Shown here in pieces: positions 23,001 through 50,000 of a DNA stretch of 64,000 nucleotides. The DNA is taken from NCBI RefSeq assembly GCF_023055435.1, contig NW_025963902.1:1798001-1862000 (forward strand), given 5' to 3'. The stretch is from Haliotis rufescens. Its lineage: Eukaryota. The position numbers are program-made. The stretch's first letter is position 1. Each line of letters begins with the position of its first letter.

Positions 23001-26000
23001 TATTATGAGCAATGTCCAAGCCTTCTGGTATTGTAACACTCAATGACCTCGTCCATTTGGTCGCCTTTAATGATCAGCATTGGTTACTGGAGACCAACTG
23101 GAACCCGGTATCCTACGTTTGACATTATCACAGAGAACATCTAAGTTCAAGCCCCGTTCCATCCAAATGCCCTCTTATTGCGTCGTCAAATTCTTCGTCT
23201 TGTGTCACTGTGAGCCAGTTCTTCCATTCTCCTACCTGACCTACAAAGCATGAACAATGAATCAGCAAGGACGCATCGTCAGTAGCACACATATGACTGA
23301 ATCAACATTCTTAATTCTGTTTCTTGTTTGTCTCCACAGCAATATTGCAGCCATAACAGAGCCGCCTGTTTATACCCCATCTGGGTAAGGCCAACCAGTG
23401 TACCCTGTCTGGCGCTCGGCATTAGGGGGCTAAAACAAGGACCGGTCGGCTCGGAGTCAGTATACTGTGTCTGAGTGGGGTATTCATGTTAAACTGCGGC
23501 ATGGTATCTCAGTGAGCTAGCACTATAAATCGGCATCAATACGGACTAGTACAAGCAGCCACACAAACACACACACGTACATGCACGTCGCTATATAAGT
23601 GCAATAATCTTGGACGCGACGTTATACCCCATTTCACCTCACCTCACCATCCAGTGATGGTATGGTATTGATATCTGTAGGGTACGATGACACGCAACCT
23701 GGCAGGCCCAGACAACCCAATCCCCATTTCAAAGGGCTCTGACTACAAGTTTTTAGAGACCCGGATTTGCCATTGGGACGTTATCAATTACGCCTTACAC
23801 TCTACTATGTATATTAGTATCTGAACAAAAGCGACAATAATCCACAATCCATAATCATAAGAAATATTGTACAATGTGCAATTCCGACATTACCATAAGC
23901 ATGACTGTGTATATGAATCACTATCAAATGGGGATGATACCAGGTGTTCGCGAAAGGATTGGCTTATCTTCCCCAACCAATGGCACATGTTACAAGCACA
24001 TGCAAAGGCCAATCAACTGTTTCCCTTAAAAAAGGGACTTGCATTGGACATCAGTTTTCTCACTGACGCATCAAATTTGAAAGTGTGCTCAACCATGAGA
24101 CATAATGAAAGCGTCACCCAGGTCTTGAATGTTGTAACACTGATCAAACAACTCTTAAACAGAAGTCGCCTATTGAAGTCATTGAGGTGAGGTGAAATGG
24201 GGTTTAACGTCGCGTCCTAGATTATTGCACTTATATAGCGACGTGTATGCGCGTGTGTGTGTGGCTGCTTGTACTAGTCCGGACTCATGCCGATTTATAG
24301 TGCTAGCCCACGGACTGAGATACCCTGCGGCAGTTTAACATGAATACCCCACTCAGAAACAATATACTCCGACTCCGAGCCGACCAGTCCTTGTTTTAGC
24401 CCCTAATGCCGAGCGCCAGAGAGGGGAACAACAAGTGCGATCTTTTAACGTATTTTTGAAGTGTTTGAAGAAAGAGCATGCTCGATTGAACCTCGAAAGT
24501 TGTGAAACGTTGACACCAAAGTCTGAAGCTGATGGCATATTGTTCGTCATAAAGGGAATGTTGACTATTGGAAAGTTGTCATACAGTCCAGTGGATAGAT
24601 TTTCGTTACTCTCAGTATTTCAGATTTCTATTTCAATCTTCTTGATGAATCAACTTTATTATTATTAAACTTTGCGCGAAACTTTAGTCAGTTTCTTGGT
24701 CGTGTTAATACGAATGTGCAGGTGATGTAACATAAAGCATGGTTAATTTTAATATGTTATCGAGATGTCTGGGCCTTTGGTTTAAGGACTTTGGGCGGAA
24801 ATCAGCCTAGCTTGTGTAATCGATCCTTTGCATTGAACACTGATGCCGAAAGGGTTTAATCCTCTTTGGAAAACATGGTGAGTACGCCAGGAGAAGACTT
24901 GCTGGGGCGGCGTATGTCATTATTAAATCAGTAACTCACCCTCGGTGTCGTACATGTCTGACGTGAGGGGCATGCCGTCACAGTGGGCCTCCGTCTTTAC
25001 GCGTTTAGCTGGCTGCATTTTGCTGGTGTCACAGGTCGCCTCCACCAAGTCGCCTATAGCTTCTTCATCCATGTCAAGATCCAGAAACTTGCAAAGACCT
25101 CGCGTTTGTTTGTAGGGGTTCTGTTGAAATAATCGAGGCATTAAAATTCAGATGAGATGTGAATTCGGTTTACCGATGCTTTGAAGAGTATTTCAGTTAC
25201 ATCACCACACGTCAGCTTGATGTGGGAGGGAAGTGATGTTTATCACTCCTATGAAACCCGCGAGCACGAGTATGGTGTGGACAAACCTACAAAGATATTC
25301 AGGACGAACTGGGATTCAAACCCACGATCATAGGTTTCTTGCACGCCTATTGGGTGCAACCCTGTATGCCAAACTGCGACGCCTCCGTACAGGACTATCC
25401 TTACCACGTTAATTTCCCCCTTCTGTATGTATATATTGTTCAGGTAGAAAACTTGACTGTTTCCGAAAATAAGTGACATTAACATTCACGCTTACAGACC
25501 AAAAGTCTTCCTTATTGGCGGCCATATTGGTCGAAGTGCAAAGATCAGGTCAAAGTAAAAACATAAACAATCACAATATATAATATTATTATATAATATC
25601 ACAAAGAAAATGGAACCTGTATCCCGAGACCCACTACCAGCTGCACTGGCATCGAATTTCTTTACATTTTGAACAATAACGGCCATAAATAGCGTTAATA
25701 TTGTGGCTGCAAAGGCGACCATATCTAAAACTGGATTCGCAGCTCTTGGACAAATGCAGATGACAAGATTGGTGTGAACAAGAACCAATCTCCAAGACAT
25801 ACCTTCCGTCTATATCGTTTAAAAGATTGCCTTGAGCTATTTACAGTAAATCTGCCATCACCTATATCATAATGTTTTTTTCGCAGGTCGTCAGACCTCA
25901 TATTCCTGGAATTGTTTACAGTTCTCTTACCTAAACAATCTTGATCCGGATGAGCTCGATGGTGACAGGGGACATCTTTACGTATGGTTATGCCACTTTC

Positions 26001-47000: not shown

Positions 47001-50000
47001 TGGGACACGCACACATCCTTGGGGTTCCGGACGAGGTAGAGAATCTTTGGCTTGTGGGTGAGGATCTGTGACGGGAGGAACCGGAGGGGGTAGTGGGAAT
47101 GGAGGAGCCTGGGGGAGGGGAGGTCAGCGAGCTGGTCAGCTGAGGTACGGTCCAGTAGGTGGAACTGACCAGTCCGGTGATGGTCGTCTGAGCCGGGGGT
47201 CGGGAGGCTGGTAAGGATATTCCACAATGAAGAGCATCCTGGAGAAGAAACATGCAGTGTGTGATTAGGTTTTCATGACGCTTTAGTATTAGTCCATCCA
47301 TTTTACAGCCAGGGAACACCTGTAATGGTCTTCCGACAAAGTTTGCAATTGAACCCGGATGTTCGGAATGAGTGAGTTTACGCCGCTGTTAGCAATAGTC
47401 CAGCAATATCACGCGGAGACCAGAAATGGTCTTCAAGCATTGTACAAATGTTGGGAATCGAACTGGGTGTTCGGGTGGCGAGTCAATATTTTAGCCACTG
47501 GACTGCCCCGAGTGTTGAAGAGGATGGGGTTGAGTGACTGAGCAGAAGGGGTTTTACGTTCCGGTGTGGGAATCGAACCCGGGCTTTTGCGTGACGTGTG
47601 AACGCTCTAACGAAAAGGCTGTCTTCATCCTGGATTATTGAATATTGTGTCATATATACGATCAACGAACAAAATAATGAACTGAAAAATCGAACTGATG
47701 TTGTGATTGGGATATGTTGACTGTTCATTTGGGGACTAACAATGACTGATAGTATTTGTAAACACTTCAGTTATATATGACGTGTTCATGTCATACTAGA
47801 GCAAATTCCGCATACACACACACAAATTATATATATAGATACACATTCTACATATAGATATTGCTTTTGTGATTGTTGTTTAACGCAACAGGCAGCAGTG
47901 CTTCAGCCATATGAGGGCGGCCTGCAAATAGTCCGAACTGGGTCAGACAGACCAGTGATTAATATTATGAACAATGAACCACGTCACCGAACCAGACCAC
48001 CCCATCCATGTAGTTGCTGCCAAAAACGATCAGCACAGTTTTCTCGTTCTCTCCCTCCCTCCCTCCTTCTCACACTCTCTCTCCCTCCCTCACCCCCTCT
48101 CTCTCATTCTCTCACTCTCTCTCTCCCTCCTCACTCTCTCATTCTCTCACTCTCTCTCCCTCCCTCACCCCCTCTCTCTCTCATTCTCTCACTCTCTCTC
48201 TCCCTCCTCACTCTCTCTCTATCTCTCGCGCTCTCTCTCCCTCCCTCTCTCTCTCCCTCTCTCTTTCTCTCGCTTCTCTCTCCCTCCCTCACCCCCTCTC
48301 TCTCTCTCCCTCCCTCACCCCTCTCTCTCTTTCTCTCTCCCTCCCCCACCCCCTCTCTCTTTTTCTCTCGCTCTCTCTCTCCCTCCCTCTCATTTTGCGC
48401 TTTGATTTTCTGCACTCACCTGAATATGGATATCCAATAATGAACACATCGTCTTGCCTCACTGCCAGATCCCTCACCTGTGTGATGTGTGTATGTAGGG
48501 CCCTGTCTCCGGGATACACCTGGAACTCACACCCATCGTACTCCATCAAGGGGAGGTAGTCCCCAGGTCGTGGCGTCTCACACATGGAAGGGCAGTAATT
48601 GGGTTCGTAGAGAAATACGCACAGGTGAAATGGTACCTGCCTTGGAAACAAGGAGACTGTCAATGAGAACTATAAACATTCCTAGTTTGTAACTACTAAA
48701 TATTAAATCCATGATTAGAACATTCCCTATGGACAAAGCCGTCTGGCTATTATTGCCGGTAAGGGAGAGACGTGGGTTTACCGCCGCTTTGAACAGTATT
48801 TAGTCATTATTGAGGGAGCTATCTGGCTTAAAAAGTGAGGGAGCTATCTGGCATAATAAGTGTGGGAGCTATCTGGCATAATTAGTGAGGGAGCTATCTG
48901 GCATAATTAGTAGGGGAGCTATCTGGCATAATTAGTGAGGGAGCTATCTGGCATAATGAGTGAGGGAGCAATCTGGCATAAAAAGTGAGGGGGCTATCTG
49001 GCATAATTAGTGAGGGAGCAATCTGGCATAATTAGTGAGGGAGCAATCTGGCATAATTAGTGAGGGAGCAATCTGGCATAATCAGTGAGGGAGCTATCTG
49101 GCATAATTAGTGAGGGAGCTATGTGGCATAATTAGTGAGGGAGCTATGTGGCATAATTAGTGAGGGAGCTATCTTGCATAATTAGTGGGGGAGCTATCTG
49201 GCATAATTAGTGAGGGAGCTACCTGGCATAATTAGTTAGGGAGCTATCTGACATAATTAGTGAGGGAGCTATCTGGCATAATCAGTGAGGGAGCTATCTG
49301 GCATAATTAGTGAGGGAGCTATCTGGCATAATTAGTGAGGGAGCTATCTGGCATAATTAGCGAGGGAGCTATCTGGCATAATAAGTGAGGGAGCTATCTG
49401 GCATAATTAGTGAGGGAGCTATCTGGCATAATTAGTGAGGGAGCTTTCTGGCGTAATCAGCGAGGGAGCTATCTGGCATAATTAGCGAGGGAGCTATCTG
49501 GCATAATTAATGAGGGAGCTATCTGGCATAATAAGTGAGGGAGCTATCTGGCATAATTAGTGAGGGAGCTATCTGGCATAATTAGTGAGGGAGCTTTCTG
49601 GCGTAATCAGCGAGGGAGCTATCTGGCATAATAAGCGAGGGAGCTATCTGGCATCATTAATGAGGGAGCTATCTGGCATAATTAGTGAGGGAGCTATCTG
49701 GCATAATTAGTGAGGGAGCTATGTGGCATAATTAGTGAGGGAGCTATGTGGCATAATTAGTGAGGGAGCTATCTGGCATAATTAGTGAGGGAGATATGTT
49801 GCATAATTAGTGAGGGAGCTATCTGGCATCATTAGTGAGGGCGCTATTTGGCATAATTAGTGAGGGAGCTATGTGGCATAATTAGTTAGGGAGCTATCTG
49901 GCATACGCCACACCTATTATATACACCCCTTTACTGTCGTGCTAGCAACATTCGCATGGTGTATGAAAATAAATTATAAGAAAGTGTTTATGAATAATAC

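What the first reader, a model, noticed from the sequence alone, without database searches (positions are those of the whole stretch)
23128..48585. Intact sulfotransferase-fold gene that has lost two PAPS-binding motifs: candidate pseudo-enzyme paired head-to-head with an active SULT
Seen: five exons splice to an open 293-aa frame with the same intron phases as the + strand SULT and the same 104-nt exon. The 5'-PSB loop reads YPYSGCSSL instead of YPKCGTHWL, and the C-terminal YRKGEVGDWKN reads YDTEGQVGEWKN (RK replaced by TE). RNPKDxxVS, the catalytic His (LHSH) and the KxxxTVxxxE dimerisation motif (KNWLTVTQDE) are kept. Known: these Lys/Thr and Arg/Lys residues bind PAPS in cytosolic SULTs. 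Inference: a non-catalytic ligand binder or a heterodimerising regulator of its divergently transcribed neighbour.
Basis: partly seen in the sequence, partly recalled or inferred. Interest (0 to 1): 0.8.

Follow-up and report, generated by a model that had tools for sequence, protein, structure and literature searches.

The report
Abalone sulfotransferase paralogue lacking cofactor site
An intact abalone gene of the sulfotransferase family, conserved in a second abalone species, has lost most residues that hold the sulfate-donor cofactor, so it is probably a non-catalytic relative that arose independently of vertebrate SULT4A1.

Summary
The window is red abalone (Haliotis rufescens), not human. 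Five minus-strand exons with GT..AG introns encode 293 aa, identical to the RefSeq model 'sulfotransferase 4A1-like' (P0001).

The protein has a full-length Sulfotransfer_1 domain and a confident SULT fold. Among 299 aligned family members, only it and its H. asinina orthologue (79% identical) deviate at all six.

Kept features:
- the catalytic His
- RNPKD..S
- GxxGxxK
- the KxxxTVxxxE dimer motif

Evidence on constraint is mixed:
- **For constraint:** changes between the two orthologues avoid family-conserved columns, as in predicted-active paralogue pairs.
- **Against:** the replacements are more radical than in active pairs, and the overall rate alone does not exclude neutrality. dN/dS and expression could not be checked.

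The gene is not a SULT4A1 orthologue. It sits on a long branch inside molluscan SULTs.

The head-to-head neighbour is an intact canonical SULT. Its ATG lies in an extra 5' micro-exon 5.3 kb away, and it is only about 30% identical to the candidate.

A modelled heterodimer through the dimer motif passes its controls, but may only reflect likeness to solved SULT dimers.

Verdict: a probable lineage-specific pseudo-sulfotransferase. Regulation of the neighbour is unproven.

The parts
48420..48585 (-). Candidate exon 1 (166 nt): ATG at 48585, residues 1-55 plus the first base of Gly56. Ends ...YPYS G|GTGAGT.
48421..48432 (-). First half of the degenerate 5'-phosphosulfate-binding loop: Y52 P53 Y54 S55. 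Tyr54 stands where 279 of 297 relatives have Lys and 12 have Arg.
46921..47238 (-). Candidate exon 2 (318 nt): residues 56-162 in part. Holds C57 S58 S59 L60 W61 (47236..47222), H102-S-H104 (47101..47093) and RNPKDVCVS (47029..47003).
44444..44547 (-). Candidate exon 3 (104 nt): residues T162 (split) to A196, with GYDGWFHHV and LRFED.
24940..25120 (-). Candidate exon 4 (181 nt): residues 197-256 plus the first base of Gly257. Holds ATCDTSKM (25039..25016; Thr228 in place of Phe), the Loop 3 lid (residues 230-251, 25021..24956) and YDTE (24952..24941; Thr255 and Glu256 in place of Arg-Lys).
23128..23240 (-). Candidate exon 5 (113 nt with TGA): G257 (split), QVGEWK, and the dimer motif KNWLTVTQDE (23223..23194).
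48586..53920 (.). Stretch between the two start codons (5335 nt). Holds a 25-bp x 44 minisatellite at 48806..49905, 220 nt upstream of the candidate's ATG. UTRs and promoters are unknown.
53921..53934 (+). Neighbour SULT, coding start micro-exon: ATG GAA AGT CTG CA|GT (MESL plus 2 nt of Gln).
57302..57480 (+). Neighbour SULT exon 2 of 6 (179 nt). Ends ...AAYPKC G|GTAAGA, phase 1, as in the candidate.
57626..57949 (+). Neighbour SULT exon 3 of 6 (324 nt): canonical G-THWLWEIV, LNSH and RNPKDVSVS.
59698..59801 (+). Neighbour SULT 104-nt exon (VPGGGYADY...YENLKK).
60799..60964 (+). Neighbour SULT exon 5 of 6 (166 nt). Ends ...MIYRK G|GTGAAA.
62038..62147 (+). Neighbour SULT last exon (110 nt with TAG): G-EVGDWKNWITVAQNE...FTYE*.

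Best explanation
The minus-strand gene is a real, intact protein-coding member of the cytosolic sulfotransferase (SULT) family. It has been kept since before the split of eastern and western Pacific abalone.

Its product folds like a SULT but can no longer hold PAPS in the canonical way. The lost residues are the catalytic Lys of the 5'-phosphosulfate loop, the adenine-stacking Trp and Phe, and the Arg-Lys pair that binds the 3'-phosphate. So it most likely does not transfer sulfate; it is a pseudo-sulfotransferase.

It keeps the core, the acceptor-side His and an unchanged KxxxTVxxxE interface. I therefore infer that it works as a dimer-forming, non-catalytic subunit. It could bind small hydroxylated ligands without turning them over, pair with active SULTs of the expanded abalone family, or do both.

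What is shown and what is inferred:
- Shown: the gene model, the fold, the motif states, their conservation in H. asinina, and the pattern of substitutions.
- Inferred from SULT4A1 and family knowledge: loss of PAPS binding and of activity.
- Inferred: dimer or ligand-binder function.
For: **Gene model.** Five exons, four GT..AG introns, 293 aa. This equals the RefSeq model P0001.

**Family and fold.**
- Pfam Sulfotransfer_1 matches P0001 at 133.9 bits over the whole profile. P0006, the H. cracherodii protein closest to the neighbour, scores 196.9 bits.
- phmmer finds 41 PDB sequences at E<=1e-10, all of them sulfotransferases or annotated as sulfotransferase-like except one chain deposited only as AGAP001425-PA.
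- The AlphaFold2 model has pLDDT 86.9 and pTM 0.87, and is weak only at residues 230-251.
- Foldseek against the PDB gives SULT1D1/1B1/1A1 at TM 0.72-0.79.

**Cofactor site.** I aligned the 299 proteins of 255-345 aa among the 360 held. The states in the 297 proteins other than the pair were:

| Position in P0001 | Residue | In the 297 others |
|---|---|---|
| 54 | Tyr | K 279, R 12 |
| 57 | Cys | T 254 |
| 59 | Ser | W 292 |
| 228 | Thr | F 264 |
| 255 | Thr | R 285 |
| 256 | Glu | K 280 |

- Ten positions were scored in all. 236 of 299 proteins have no deviation, and only P0001 and P0002 have six.
- The four kept positions are H104, R126, S134 and G257. W262, K263, T267, V268 and E272 are also kept.

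**Precedent.** SULT4A1 does not bind PAP. The authors ascribe this to Trp53 to Leu and to a loop lacking the Lys between Arg258 and Gly260 (PMC1847840, passages). The motif roles 45-TYPKSGTT-52 and 257-RKGMAGDWKXXFT-269 are named in PMC6969939 (passages).

**Conservation.**
- The H. asinina orthologue P0002 (296 aa) is 232/293 identical and has the same six states.
- The best H. rufescens to H. asinina pairs of canonical SULTs are 78-80% identical.
- Differences between P0001 and P0002 fall in 8/88, 14/87 and 31/88 columns of the most conserved, middle and most variable thirds of the family alignment (Mann-Whitney p 6.6e-6).
- Three canonical pairs give 10/93, 14/93, 28/93; 7/94, 19/95, 28/94; and 8/94, 19/95, 32/94.
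- Unconstrained substitution to 79% identity left the frame stop-free in 122 of 4000 simulations.
- Both indels between the orthologues are in frame.

**Dimer interface.**
- Residues 257-275 are 19/19 identical between the orthologues, against 16-18/19 in canonical pairs.
- Complex prediction of P0006 with P0001 scored 0.74, with the best of 3 controls at 0.00.
- That mark was reached by 51 of 78 solved complexes and 2 of 108 mismatched pairs (microbes).
- On eukaryotes it was reached by 39 of 65 solved pairs with no like older complex, 71 of 105 in all, and 2 of 126 unrelated pairs.
- The runs agree in at least 100% of contacts, and the partner's pLDDT is at least 76.
- The interface is P0001 residues 262-269 and 271-272 against P0006 residues 268-275 and 277-278, i.e. 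the KxxxTVxxxE motifs.
- SULT dimers of this kind are solved, so the pass may come from memory. It shows likeness, not binding.
Against: - No transcript evidence and no dN/dS. No tool here holds abalone RNA or H. asinina DNA.
- The RefSeq model comes from the same genome, so it is not independent evidence.
- The 61 replacements between the orthologues are not significantly more conservative than random single-base changes. Mean BLOSUM62 is -0.33 against an expected -0.55, and 3040 of 20000 draws reach the observed value.
- They are more radical than in five canonical pairs, whose means run from +0.03 to +0.34.
- The overall rate does not exclude neutrality. Unconstrained change needs about 0.11 substitutions per site to reach 79% identity. 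My arithmetic from a preprint's numbers (8.6e-9 per site per generation, 6-year generations, split 36.4 Ma; 10.1101/2024.09.16.613283, passages) gives about 0.10 per site. That figure was calibrated on conserved coding genes, so I take it as a lower bound.
- Only two species are in hand. Searches list no separate H. cracherodii or H. rubra orthologue, although both proteomes are in the database. They may be hidden in the 90% clusters or may be absent.
- R126, S134, G257, G260, K263 and the His are kept, so some nucleotide or other anion binding, or an unusual chemistry, is not excluded.
Confidence: 0.6

Rival explanations
1. It is still an enzyme. Either it is a sulfotransferase that holds PAPS through substitute contacts, or a SULT-fold enzyme that has moved to another donor or reaction while keeping the catalytic His.
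For: - His104, R126, S134, G257, G260 and K263 are kept.
- Residues 44-66 (strand, PSB loop, helix) are 21/23 identical between the two species, including the odd YPYSGCSSLW. This could mean a new function for the loop rather than mere structure.
- Substitutions avoid conserved columns, as in active enzymes.
- SULT4A1 crystals held unidentified density in the cofactor pocket (PMC1847840, passage).
Against: - Six cofactor contacts are changed at once. Three positive charges are lost and one negative charge is gained.
- No other of the 297 aligned relatives has Tyr at the Lys position, and none has Thr at the Arg position.
- Milder changes abolish PAP binding in SULT4A1.
- Loop 3, the lid ordered by PAPS, is the least conserved region (15/28) and is modelled with pLDDT below 50.
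Confidence: 0.12
2. It is a decaying or function-less relic. The frames of both species have stayed open by chance, or selection stopped only recently, and gene-prediction pipelines still call it.
For: - Replacements are near the random expectation in kind and more radical than in active pairs.
- The overall divergence is compatible with the lower-bound neutral estimate.
- There is a long stem branch of 1.03 changes per column.
- No separate orthologue is listed for H. cracherodii or H. rubra.
- There is no expression evidence.
Against: - Open frames of 293 and 296 aa exist in both lineages.
- The H. rufescens copy has 4 of 4 canonical splice sites.
- Only 122 of 4000 unconstrained simulations stay stop-free, before counting indels and splice sites.
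- Both indels are in frame.
- Substitutions are 4 times rarer in family-conserved columns than in variable ones, as in active paralogues. Neutral decay does not predict this.
- Residues 257-275 are 19/19 identical.
Confidence: 0.12
3. One reading: it is a dedicated heterodimerising regulator of the divergently transcribed neighbour, co-regulated with it from a shared control region.
For: - The orientation is head to head.
- Both proteins keep KxxxTVxxxE.
- Complex prediction scored 0.74 against a best control of 0.00. The mark was reached by 51 of 78 solved complexes and 2 of 108 mismatched pairs. The runs agree in at least 100% of contacts, and the partner's pLDDT is at least 76. The interface lies at the two motifs.
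- By equal contig lengths, both species carry the candidate and many SULT1-like genes on one contig or chromosome: 14,692,186 nt in H. rufescens and 105,963,769 nt in H. asinina.
Against: - In that test, close cousins of a true partner passed 10 of 12 times, and solved SULT dimers exist. The pass is therefore not specific to this neighbour.
- The chain used was the H. cracherodii stand-in P0006, not the window's own product.
- The ATGs are 5335 nt apart with a 1.1-kb minisatellite between them, and the neighbour's first intron holds a broken transposase.
- The neighbour is one of many near-identical paralogues. It is not the candidate's closest relative.
- There are no co-expression data.
Confidence: 0.1

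Closest known systems
Vertebrate SULT4A1 (PDB 1ZD1), the orphan brain SULT with no PAP binding and no known activity
   Same: - SULT fold.
- Catalytic His and KxxxTVxxxE are kept.
- The adenine-stacking Trp is replaced, and the Arg-Lys-Gly segment is disturbed (alignment; PMC1847840 passages; PMC11275347 passages).
- It is the best PDB sequence hit (E 1.1e-28), though hardly better than SULT3A1 or SULT1A3.
   Different: - SULT4A1 keeps TYPKSGT with its Lys and Thr, and has a shortened Loop 3. The abalone protein has Tyr and Cys there, a full-length or longer Loop 3, and Thr-Glu in place of Arg-Lys.
- In the tree the abalone pair lies inside the molluscan SULT clade (support 98). The SULT4A1-like representative P0333 lies outside that clade.
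- So this is a parallel loss, not orthology. The RefSeq name is a best-hit label.
Canonical molluscan SULT1-like enzymes, such as the window's plus-strand gene and its relatives P0006-P0032
   Same: - Same Pfam domain and fold.
- Same four intron positions and phases, and the same 104-nt exon.
- Same contig.
- Same level of conservation between H. rufescens and H. asinina: 79% against 78-80%.
- Same spatial pattern of substitutions.
   Different: - About 30% identity only.
- All six cofactor positions differ.
- Long stem branch of 1.03.
- More radical replacements.
- No 5' micro-exon.
Dead paralogues that pair with active enzymes, e.g. trypanosomatid deoxyhypusine synthase
   Same: A catalytically impaired paralogue that keeps the oligomer interface of its active relatives. 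This is the working model for a heterodimer role.
   Different: For the trypanosomatid case I saw only the search listing and the start of the abstract of PMC3663545. For the abalone protein, neither partner nor effect is known.

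Membership tests
Cytosolic sulfotransferase family (Pfam PF00685 Sulfotransfer_1) | Domain match above the curated cut-off over the full profile | tested here: met
   P0001 scores 133.9 bits (cut-off 22) over profile positions 1-255 of 255. Exon 2 alone scores 63.1 bits.
Cytosolic sulfotransferase family (Pfam PF00685 Sulfotransfer_1) | SULT fold (central parallel sheet with surrounding helices) | tested here: met
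   The AF2 model has pLDDT 86.9 and pTM 0.87. Foldseek against the PDB gives TM 0.72-0.79 to SULT1 structures, E about 1e-17.
Cytosolic sulfotransferase family (Pfam PF00685 Sulfotransfer_1) | 5'-phosphosulfate-binding loop PK(S/C)GT.W | tested here: not met
   The loop reads PYSGCSS. Lys to Tyr54, Thr to Cys57, Trp to Ser59. Only Gly56 is kept.
Cytosolic sulfotransferase family (Pfam PF00685 Sulfotransfer_1) | 3'-phosphate-binding RNPKD...S segment | tested here: met
   RNPKDVCVS at residues 126-134.
Cytosolic sulfotransferase family (Pfam PF00685 Sulfotransfer_1) | C-terminal RKGxxGDWK cofactor motif | tested here: not met
   The motif reads TEGQVGEWK. The Arg and Lys are lost, while G257, G260, W262 and K263 are kept.
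Cytosolic sulfotransferase family (Pfam PF00685 Sulfotransfer_1) | Catalytic His | tested here: met
   H104 is aligned with the His found in 296 of 297 relatives.
Cytosolic sulfotransferase family (Pfam PF00685 Sulfotransfer_1) | KxxxTVxxxE dimer motif | tested here: met
   KNWLTVTQDE at residues 263-272. It is identical in H. asinina. It forms the modelled interface (score 0.74, best control 0.00, may be from memory).
Cytosolic sulfotransferase family (Pfam PF00685 Sulfotransfer_1) | PAPS-dependent sulfonate transfer | not testable with these tools
   Needs purified protein. PAP and PAPS are not among the ligands of complex prediction.
SULT4A1 orthologue group | Groups with SULT4A1 in a family tree | tested here: not met
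   The pair lies inside the molluscan clade. The SULT4A1-like representative P0333 lies outside that 59-row clade (quick LG+G4 tree, one SULT4A1-type row only).
SULT4A1 orthologue group | TYPKSGT kept, Trp53 to Leu, shortened Loop 3 | tested here: not met
   Features taken from PMC1847840 and PMC11275347. The abalone protein has YPYSGCS with Ser at the Trp place. In the HMMER alignment to 1zd1, its Loop 3 is longer than that of SULT4A1.
Pseudoenzyme (conserved, catalytically deficient homologue) | Key catalytic or cofactor residues missing | tested here: met
   Six of six scored cofactor positions are changed. This is unique among the 299 aligned sequences.
Pseudoenzyme (conserved, catalytically deficient homologue) | Kept by selection after the loss | tested here: inconclusive
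   For. Against or neutral: and the rate argument. dN/dS was not computable.
Pseudoenzyme (conserved, catalytically deficient homologue) | Expressed as protein, and inactive in assay | not testable with these tools
   No RNA-seq, proteome or assay is at hand.

The most novel reading that the evidence does not exclude
Abalone carry a purpose-built, catalytically dead SULT subunit that arose independently of vertebrate SULT4A1. It uses the unchanged KxxxTVxxxE interface to form mixed dimers with the many active SULTs of the expanded molluscan family and tunes their activity. Alternatively, it uses the remodelled Tyr/Cys/Ser pocket for a PAPS-independent chemistry. Either reading would give an invertebrate model for what non-catalytic SULTs do, a question still open for SULT4A1.
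Probability: 0.15. Interest if true: 0.65.

Novelty: new member of a known kind. Interest (0 to 1): 0.4.

Why it matters
Dead paralogues are known in most enzyme families. In the cytosolic SULTs the one studied case is SULT4A1, and its function is still unknown.

A second, independently derived SULT that has lost cofactor binding more thoroughly would show that non-catalytic SULTs evolve repeatedly. It keeps the fold, the His and the dimer interface, and has been conserved since a split dated at 36.4 Ma in the preprint I read. It would also offer a tractable comparison for asking what such proteins do.

There is a practical point too. Counts of 'SULT genes' in mollusc genomes are used to argue for detoxification capacity; the scallop genome paper reports 83 (PMC5700196, passages). 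Such counts may include non-enzymes, and the RefSeq label 'SULT4A1-like' misleads about orthology.

Tried and rejected
**Exon search with the neighbour's exons.** tblastn of the neighbour's exon translations against the window found the candidate's exons 1 and 2 but not 3 and 4. These came only with the database protein P0001.

**Start of the plus gene.**
- The first pattern for the missing start was mis-designed (a whole Gln codon before GT) and found nothing.
- The corrected pattern found 53921. That search gave 9 matches with up to 3 mismatches against 10.5 expected by chance. The hit is accepted because it spells MESL plus CA|GT exactly as in P0006, not because of the count.
- A donor-like site at about 57167 was considered for the plus gene's first exon and dropped, as there was no in-frame ATG (by eye).

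**SULT4A1 orthology.** Rejected.

**Recent duplicate of the neighbour.** Rejected (about 30% identity and different clades).

**Conservative-replacement test.** Not significant.

**Cluster contents.** Whether H. cracherodii or H. rubra orthologues sit in the clusters of P0001 or P0002 could not be seen.

**Limits of the protein searches.**
- The representative search listed only the best 150 of 3892 hits.
- The alignment therefore took 299 of the 360 proteins held, those of 255-345 aa. Rarer dead SULTs among the unlisted hits cannot be excluded.

**Literature.**
- 'sulfotransferase' with 'pseudoenzyme': 8 papers, none on a dead cytosolic SULT of molluscs.
- 'sulfotransferase 4A1-like': 0 papers.
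- 'abalone', 'sulfotransferase', 'Haliotis': 47 papers. Of these 15 were listed, seen in the listing only, none on this gene by title or abstract.
- 'sulfotransferase', 'catalytically inactive', 'lacks', 'PAPS binding': 1 paper, on HS2ST.
- 'cytosolic sulfotransferase', 'mollusc', 'gene family', 'expansion': 2 papers.
- Supplementary files were not opened. The SULT trees and tables in the scallop paper's supplements may bear on how common such members are.

**Collections.** No abalone DNA other than the window was available, so dN/dS and synteny in H. asinina stayed unchecked.

**Joined step.** Exons were searched singly. For whole-protein work I used the database protein P0001, which the search returned and which equals the model.

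Full report
**Source and rules.** The window has no N. It is not human. Exon translations match NCBI's 'sulfotransferase 4A1-like [Haliotis rufescens]' (P0001, 293 aa) at 100% within exons. Whole-protein work used P0001, which the database search itself returned.

**The observation.** On the minus strand the coding exons are as follows.

| Exon | Coordinates | Length |
|---|---|---|
| E1 | 48585..48420 | 166 nt |
| E2 | 47238..46921 | 318 nt |
| E3 | 44547..44444 | 104 nt |
| E4 | 25120..24940 | 181 nt |
| E5 | 23240..23128 | 113 nt, with TGA |

- All four introns begin GT and end AG. Their phases are 1, 1, 0, 1. Their lengths are 1181, 2373, 19,323 and 1699 nt.
- The sum is 882 nt, or 293 codons plus the stop.

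**The plus-strand neighbour.**
- It shares the four intron positions and phases and a 104-nt exon at 59698..59801.
- Its ORF has no ATG before 'TPEILDYRNENG'.
- Relatives begin MESLQ. A pattern search found ATG GAA AGT CTG CA|GT at 53921, which joins the acceptor at 57301|57302.
- So the neighbour has six coding exons: 14, 179, 324, 104, 166 and 110 nt, or 298 aa plus the stop.
- It carries every canonical motif (YPKCGTHW, LNSH, RNPKDVSVS, YRKGEVGDWKN, KNWITVAQNE).
- Its ATG lies 5335 nt from the candidate's.
- Its closest database protein is H. cracherodii 'sulfotransferase 1C2-like X1' (P0006). Exon by exon it is 92-98% identical.

**What the protein is.**
- Pfam Sulfotransfer_1 covers P0001 end to end at 133.9 bits, against 196.9 bits for P0006.
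- phmmer against PDB sequences finds 41 sequences at E<=1e-10. All are sulfotransferases or annotated as sulfotransferase-like, except one chain deposited only as AGAP001425-PA. SULT4A1 is first (1.1e-28), hardly ahead of SULT3A1, SULT1A3 and SULT1A1.
- An AlphaFold2 model from an 80-row alignment has pLDDT 86.9 and pTM 0.87. Only residues 230-251 fall below 50, and these are the Loop 3 lid.
- Foldseek gives SULT1D1, SULT1B1 and SULT1A1 structures at TM 0.72-0.79.

**The cofactor site.** I aligned all 299 proteins of 255-345 aa among the 360 then held, and read the columns of the known cofactor contacts. The roles of 45-TYPKSGTT-52 and 257-RKGMAGDWKXXFT-269 are as named in PMC6969939 (passages). 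The roles of Trp53 and Arg258/Gly260 are as in PMC1847840 (passages). That the Phe of the TSF..M segment and the Thr of the loop contact PAPS is my recollection.

| Position in P0001 | Residue | In the other 297 |
|---|---|---|
| 54 | Tyr | K 279, R 12 |
| 57 | Cys | T 254, C 18 |
| 59 | Ser | W 292 |
| 228 | Thr | F 264 |
| 255 | Thr | R 285 |
| 256 | Glu | K 280 |

- Kept residues are G56, H104, R126, N127, P128, K129, D130, S134, G257, G260, W262, K263, T267, V268 and E272.
- Over ten scored positions, 236 of 299 sequences deviate nowhere and 49 deviate once.
- Only P0001 and P0002 deviate six times. The next sequences are a truncated protein and SULT4A1-type sequences.
- The net change in the pocket is three positive charges lost and one negative charge gained.
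- PMC1847840 reports that SULT4A1 was not stabilised by PAP even at 90 mM. It ascribes this to Trp53 to Leu and to a loop that lacks the Lys between Arg258 and Gly260.
- The abalone protein has changes at both of those places, and in addition lacks the loop Lys and Thr that SULT4A1 keeps.
- Loss of canonical PAPS binding is therefore a strong inference, but it has not been measured.

**Relatives and age.**
- With exon 2 (longer proteins) and with P0001 (near lengths), the only close relative is H. asinina 'sulfotransferase 4A1-like isoform X2' (P0002, 296 aa). It is 232/293 identical and has the same six states.
- Everything else is at most about 37% identical, including the best 150 of 3892 hits in the representative library.
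- In a 74-row tree (quick search, LG+G4) the pair is joined at 100. It sits on a stem of 1.03 changes per column inside the molluscan clade (98), with weak support (85) beside Pomacea and Babylonia SULTs.
- It is away from the Haliotis SULT1-like cluster that holds the neighbour's relatives, and away from the SULT4A1-like representative P0333.
- So the RefSeq name reflects a best hit, not orthology. The loss of the cofactor residues parallels that of SULT4A1.
- A preprint dates the split of eastern (H. rufescens) and western (H. asinina) Pacific abalone at 36.4 Ma (10.1101/2024.09.16.613283, passages). The shared losses are older than that.

**Is it under selection?**

Evidence for:
- The frames are open in both species, and both indels are in frame.
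- 79% identity equals the 78-80% of the best H. rufescens to H. asinina pairs of canonical SULTs. The path lengths agree: 0.22 against about 0.24, the latter my sum of branch lengths.
- Differences fall in 8/88, 14/87 and 31/88 columns by thirds of family conservation (p 6.6e-6). This is indistinguishable from three canonical pairs.
- Only 122 of 4000 unconstrained simulations reaching 79% identity stay free of stops.
- Residues 257-275 are 19/19 identical.

Evidence against, or neutral:
- The replacements are not significantly more conservative than random (3040 of 20000).
- They are more radical than in five canonical pairs (-0.33 against +0.03 to +0.34).
- Loops 1 and 3 are less conserved than in canonical pairs: 19/28 and 15/28 against 23-28/29 and 14/24 to 24/33.
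- The 0.11 substitutions per site that unconstrained change would need is close to the 0.10 that I compute from the preprint's rate, generation time and date. That date was calibrated on conserved coding genes, so true neutral divergence is probably higher. This last step is inference.

My reading is that the core and the dimer interface are under purifying selection like those of active SULTs. The lid and surface are relaxed or changing adaptively.

**How it most likely works.**
- The protein keeps what a SULT needs to fold, to dimerise and to present the acceptor-side His. It has lost what it needs to hold the donor.
- The dimer motif KxxxTVxxxE is the common SULT interface (PMC5550701, passages).
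- Complex prediction with the neighbour's stand-in P0006 scored 0.74, against a best of 3 controls at 0.00. The mark was reached by 51 of 78 solved complexes and 2 of 108 mismatched pairs.
- On eukaryotes the mark was reached by 39 of 65 solved pairs with no like older complex, 71 of 105 in all, and 2 of 126 unrelated pairs.
- The runs agree in at least 100% of contacts, and the partner's pLDDT is at least 76.
- The contacts are exactly residues 262-269 and 271-272 of P0001 against 268-275 and 277-278 of P0006.
- SULT dimers are solved, and close cousins of a true partner passed 10 of 12 in that test. So the result shows a preserved interface. It does not show that this pair binds, nor which paralogue would.
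- I therefore commit to a non-catalytic, dimer-forming SULT-fold protein (0.6). Within that, a ligand-holding role and a mixed-dimer role with active SULTs are both open.

**Rivals.**
- A still-active or re-purposed enzyme (0.12).
- A relic (0.12).
- A regulator dedicated to the neighbour (0.1).

**Known and new.** The gene model is in RefSeq. I found nothing in print on its degenerate site or on dead cytosolic SULTs in molluscs (supplements not seen). Pseudoenzymes are common, and sulfotransferases are named among such families (PMC5106787, one passage). Mollusc SULT families are large, with 83 genes in a scallop (PMC5700196, passages). A dead member is therefore not surprising in kind. It is a new member of a known kind, with some value as an independent parallel to SULT4A1.

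Noticed in passing
window 5536-6747, 12504-13715, 20454-21605 (minus strand): Three tandem, apparently intronless ORFs of 403, 403 and 383 aa with an alpha/beta-hydrolase domain (Abhydrolase_1, E 1.1e-8 for the first). The first two lie in near-identical repeat units about 7.6 kb apart: flanking ORFs recur at 431/8069, 848/8486 and so on. The third is more diverged.
   Followed up: partly
window 33425-35773 (minus strand), inside the 19.3-kb intron 3 of the candidate: A 782-aa open frame on the same strand as the host gene. It has 12 C2H2 zinc fingers (zf-C2H2 E 1.1e-78) preceded by about 15 copies of a 69-bp (23-aa) tandem repeat at 34633-35694. It could be a nested gene or part of a mobile element.
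   Followed up: partly
window 48806-49905: A minisatellite of a 25-bp unit, 44 copies, 92% matches. It starts 220 nt upstream of the candidate's ATG, in the stretch between the two divergent genes.
   Followed up: no
window 55156-56149 (plus strand), inside intron 1 of the neighbour SULT: Broken Tc1/mariner-type transposase remnants (DDE_3 and HTH_Tnp_Tc3_2 matches below the curated cut-offs), with the reading frame split over several frames.
   Followed up: partly
window 48048-48391; 61290-61390; 26652-27422: Three simple or tandem repeats. A (TC)n tract of about 174 copies lies in intron 1 of the candidate. A (CA/TG)n tract lies in the neighbour's intron between 60964 and 62038. A 172-bp x 4.5 tandem repeat lies in the candidate's intron 3.
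   Followed up: no
window about 23516-23671, 24179-24334, 41045-41152, 59918-60130 and others, both strands: A dispersed short repeat whose translation recurs ('STINRH.SGLVQAATH/QTH...SLYKCNNLGRDV'). It is probably a SINE-like element, present in introns of both SULT genes.
   Followed up: no
proteins P0006-P0032: Haliotis species carry many closely related SULT1-like paralogues (74-98% identical to the neighbour's exon 3 of 6). This points to a lineage-specific SULT expansion next to the dead member.
   Followed up: partly
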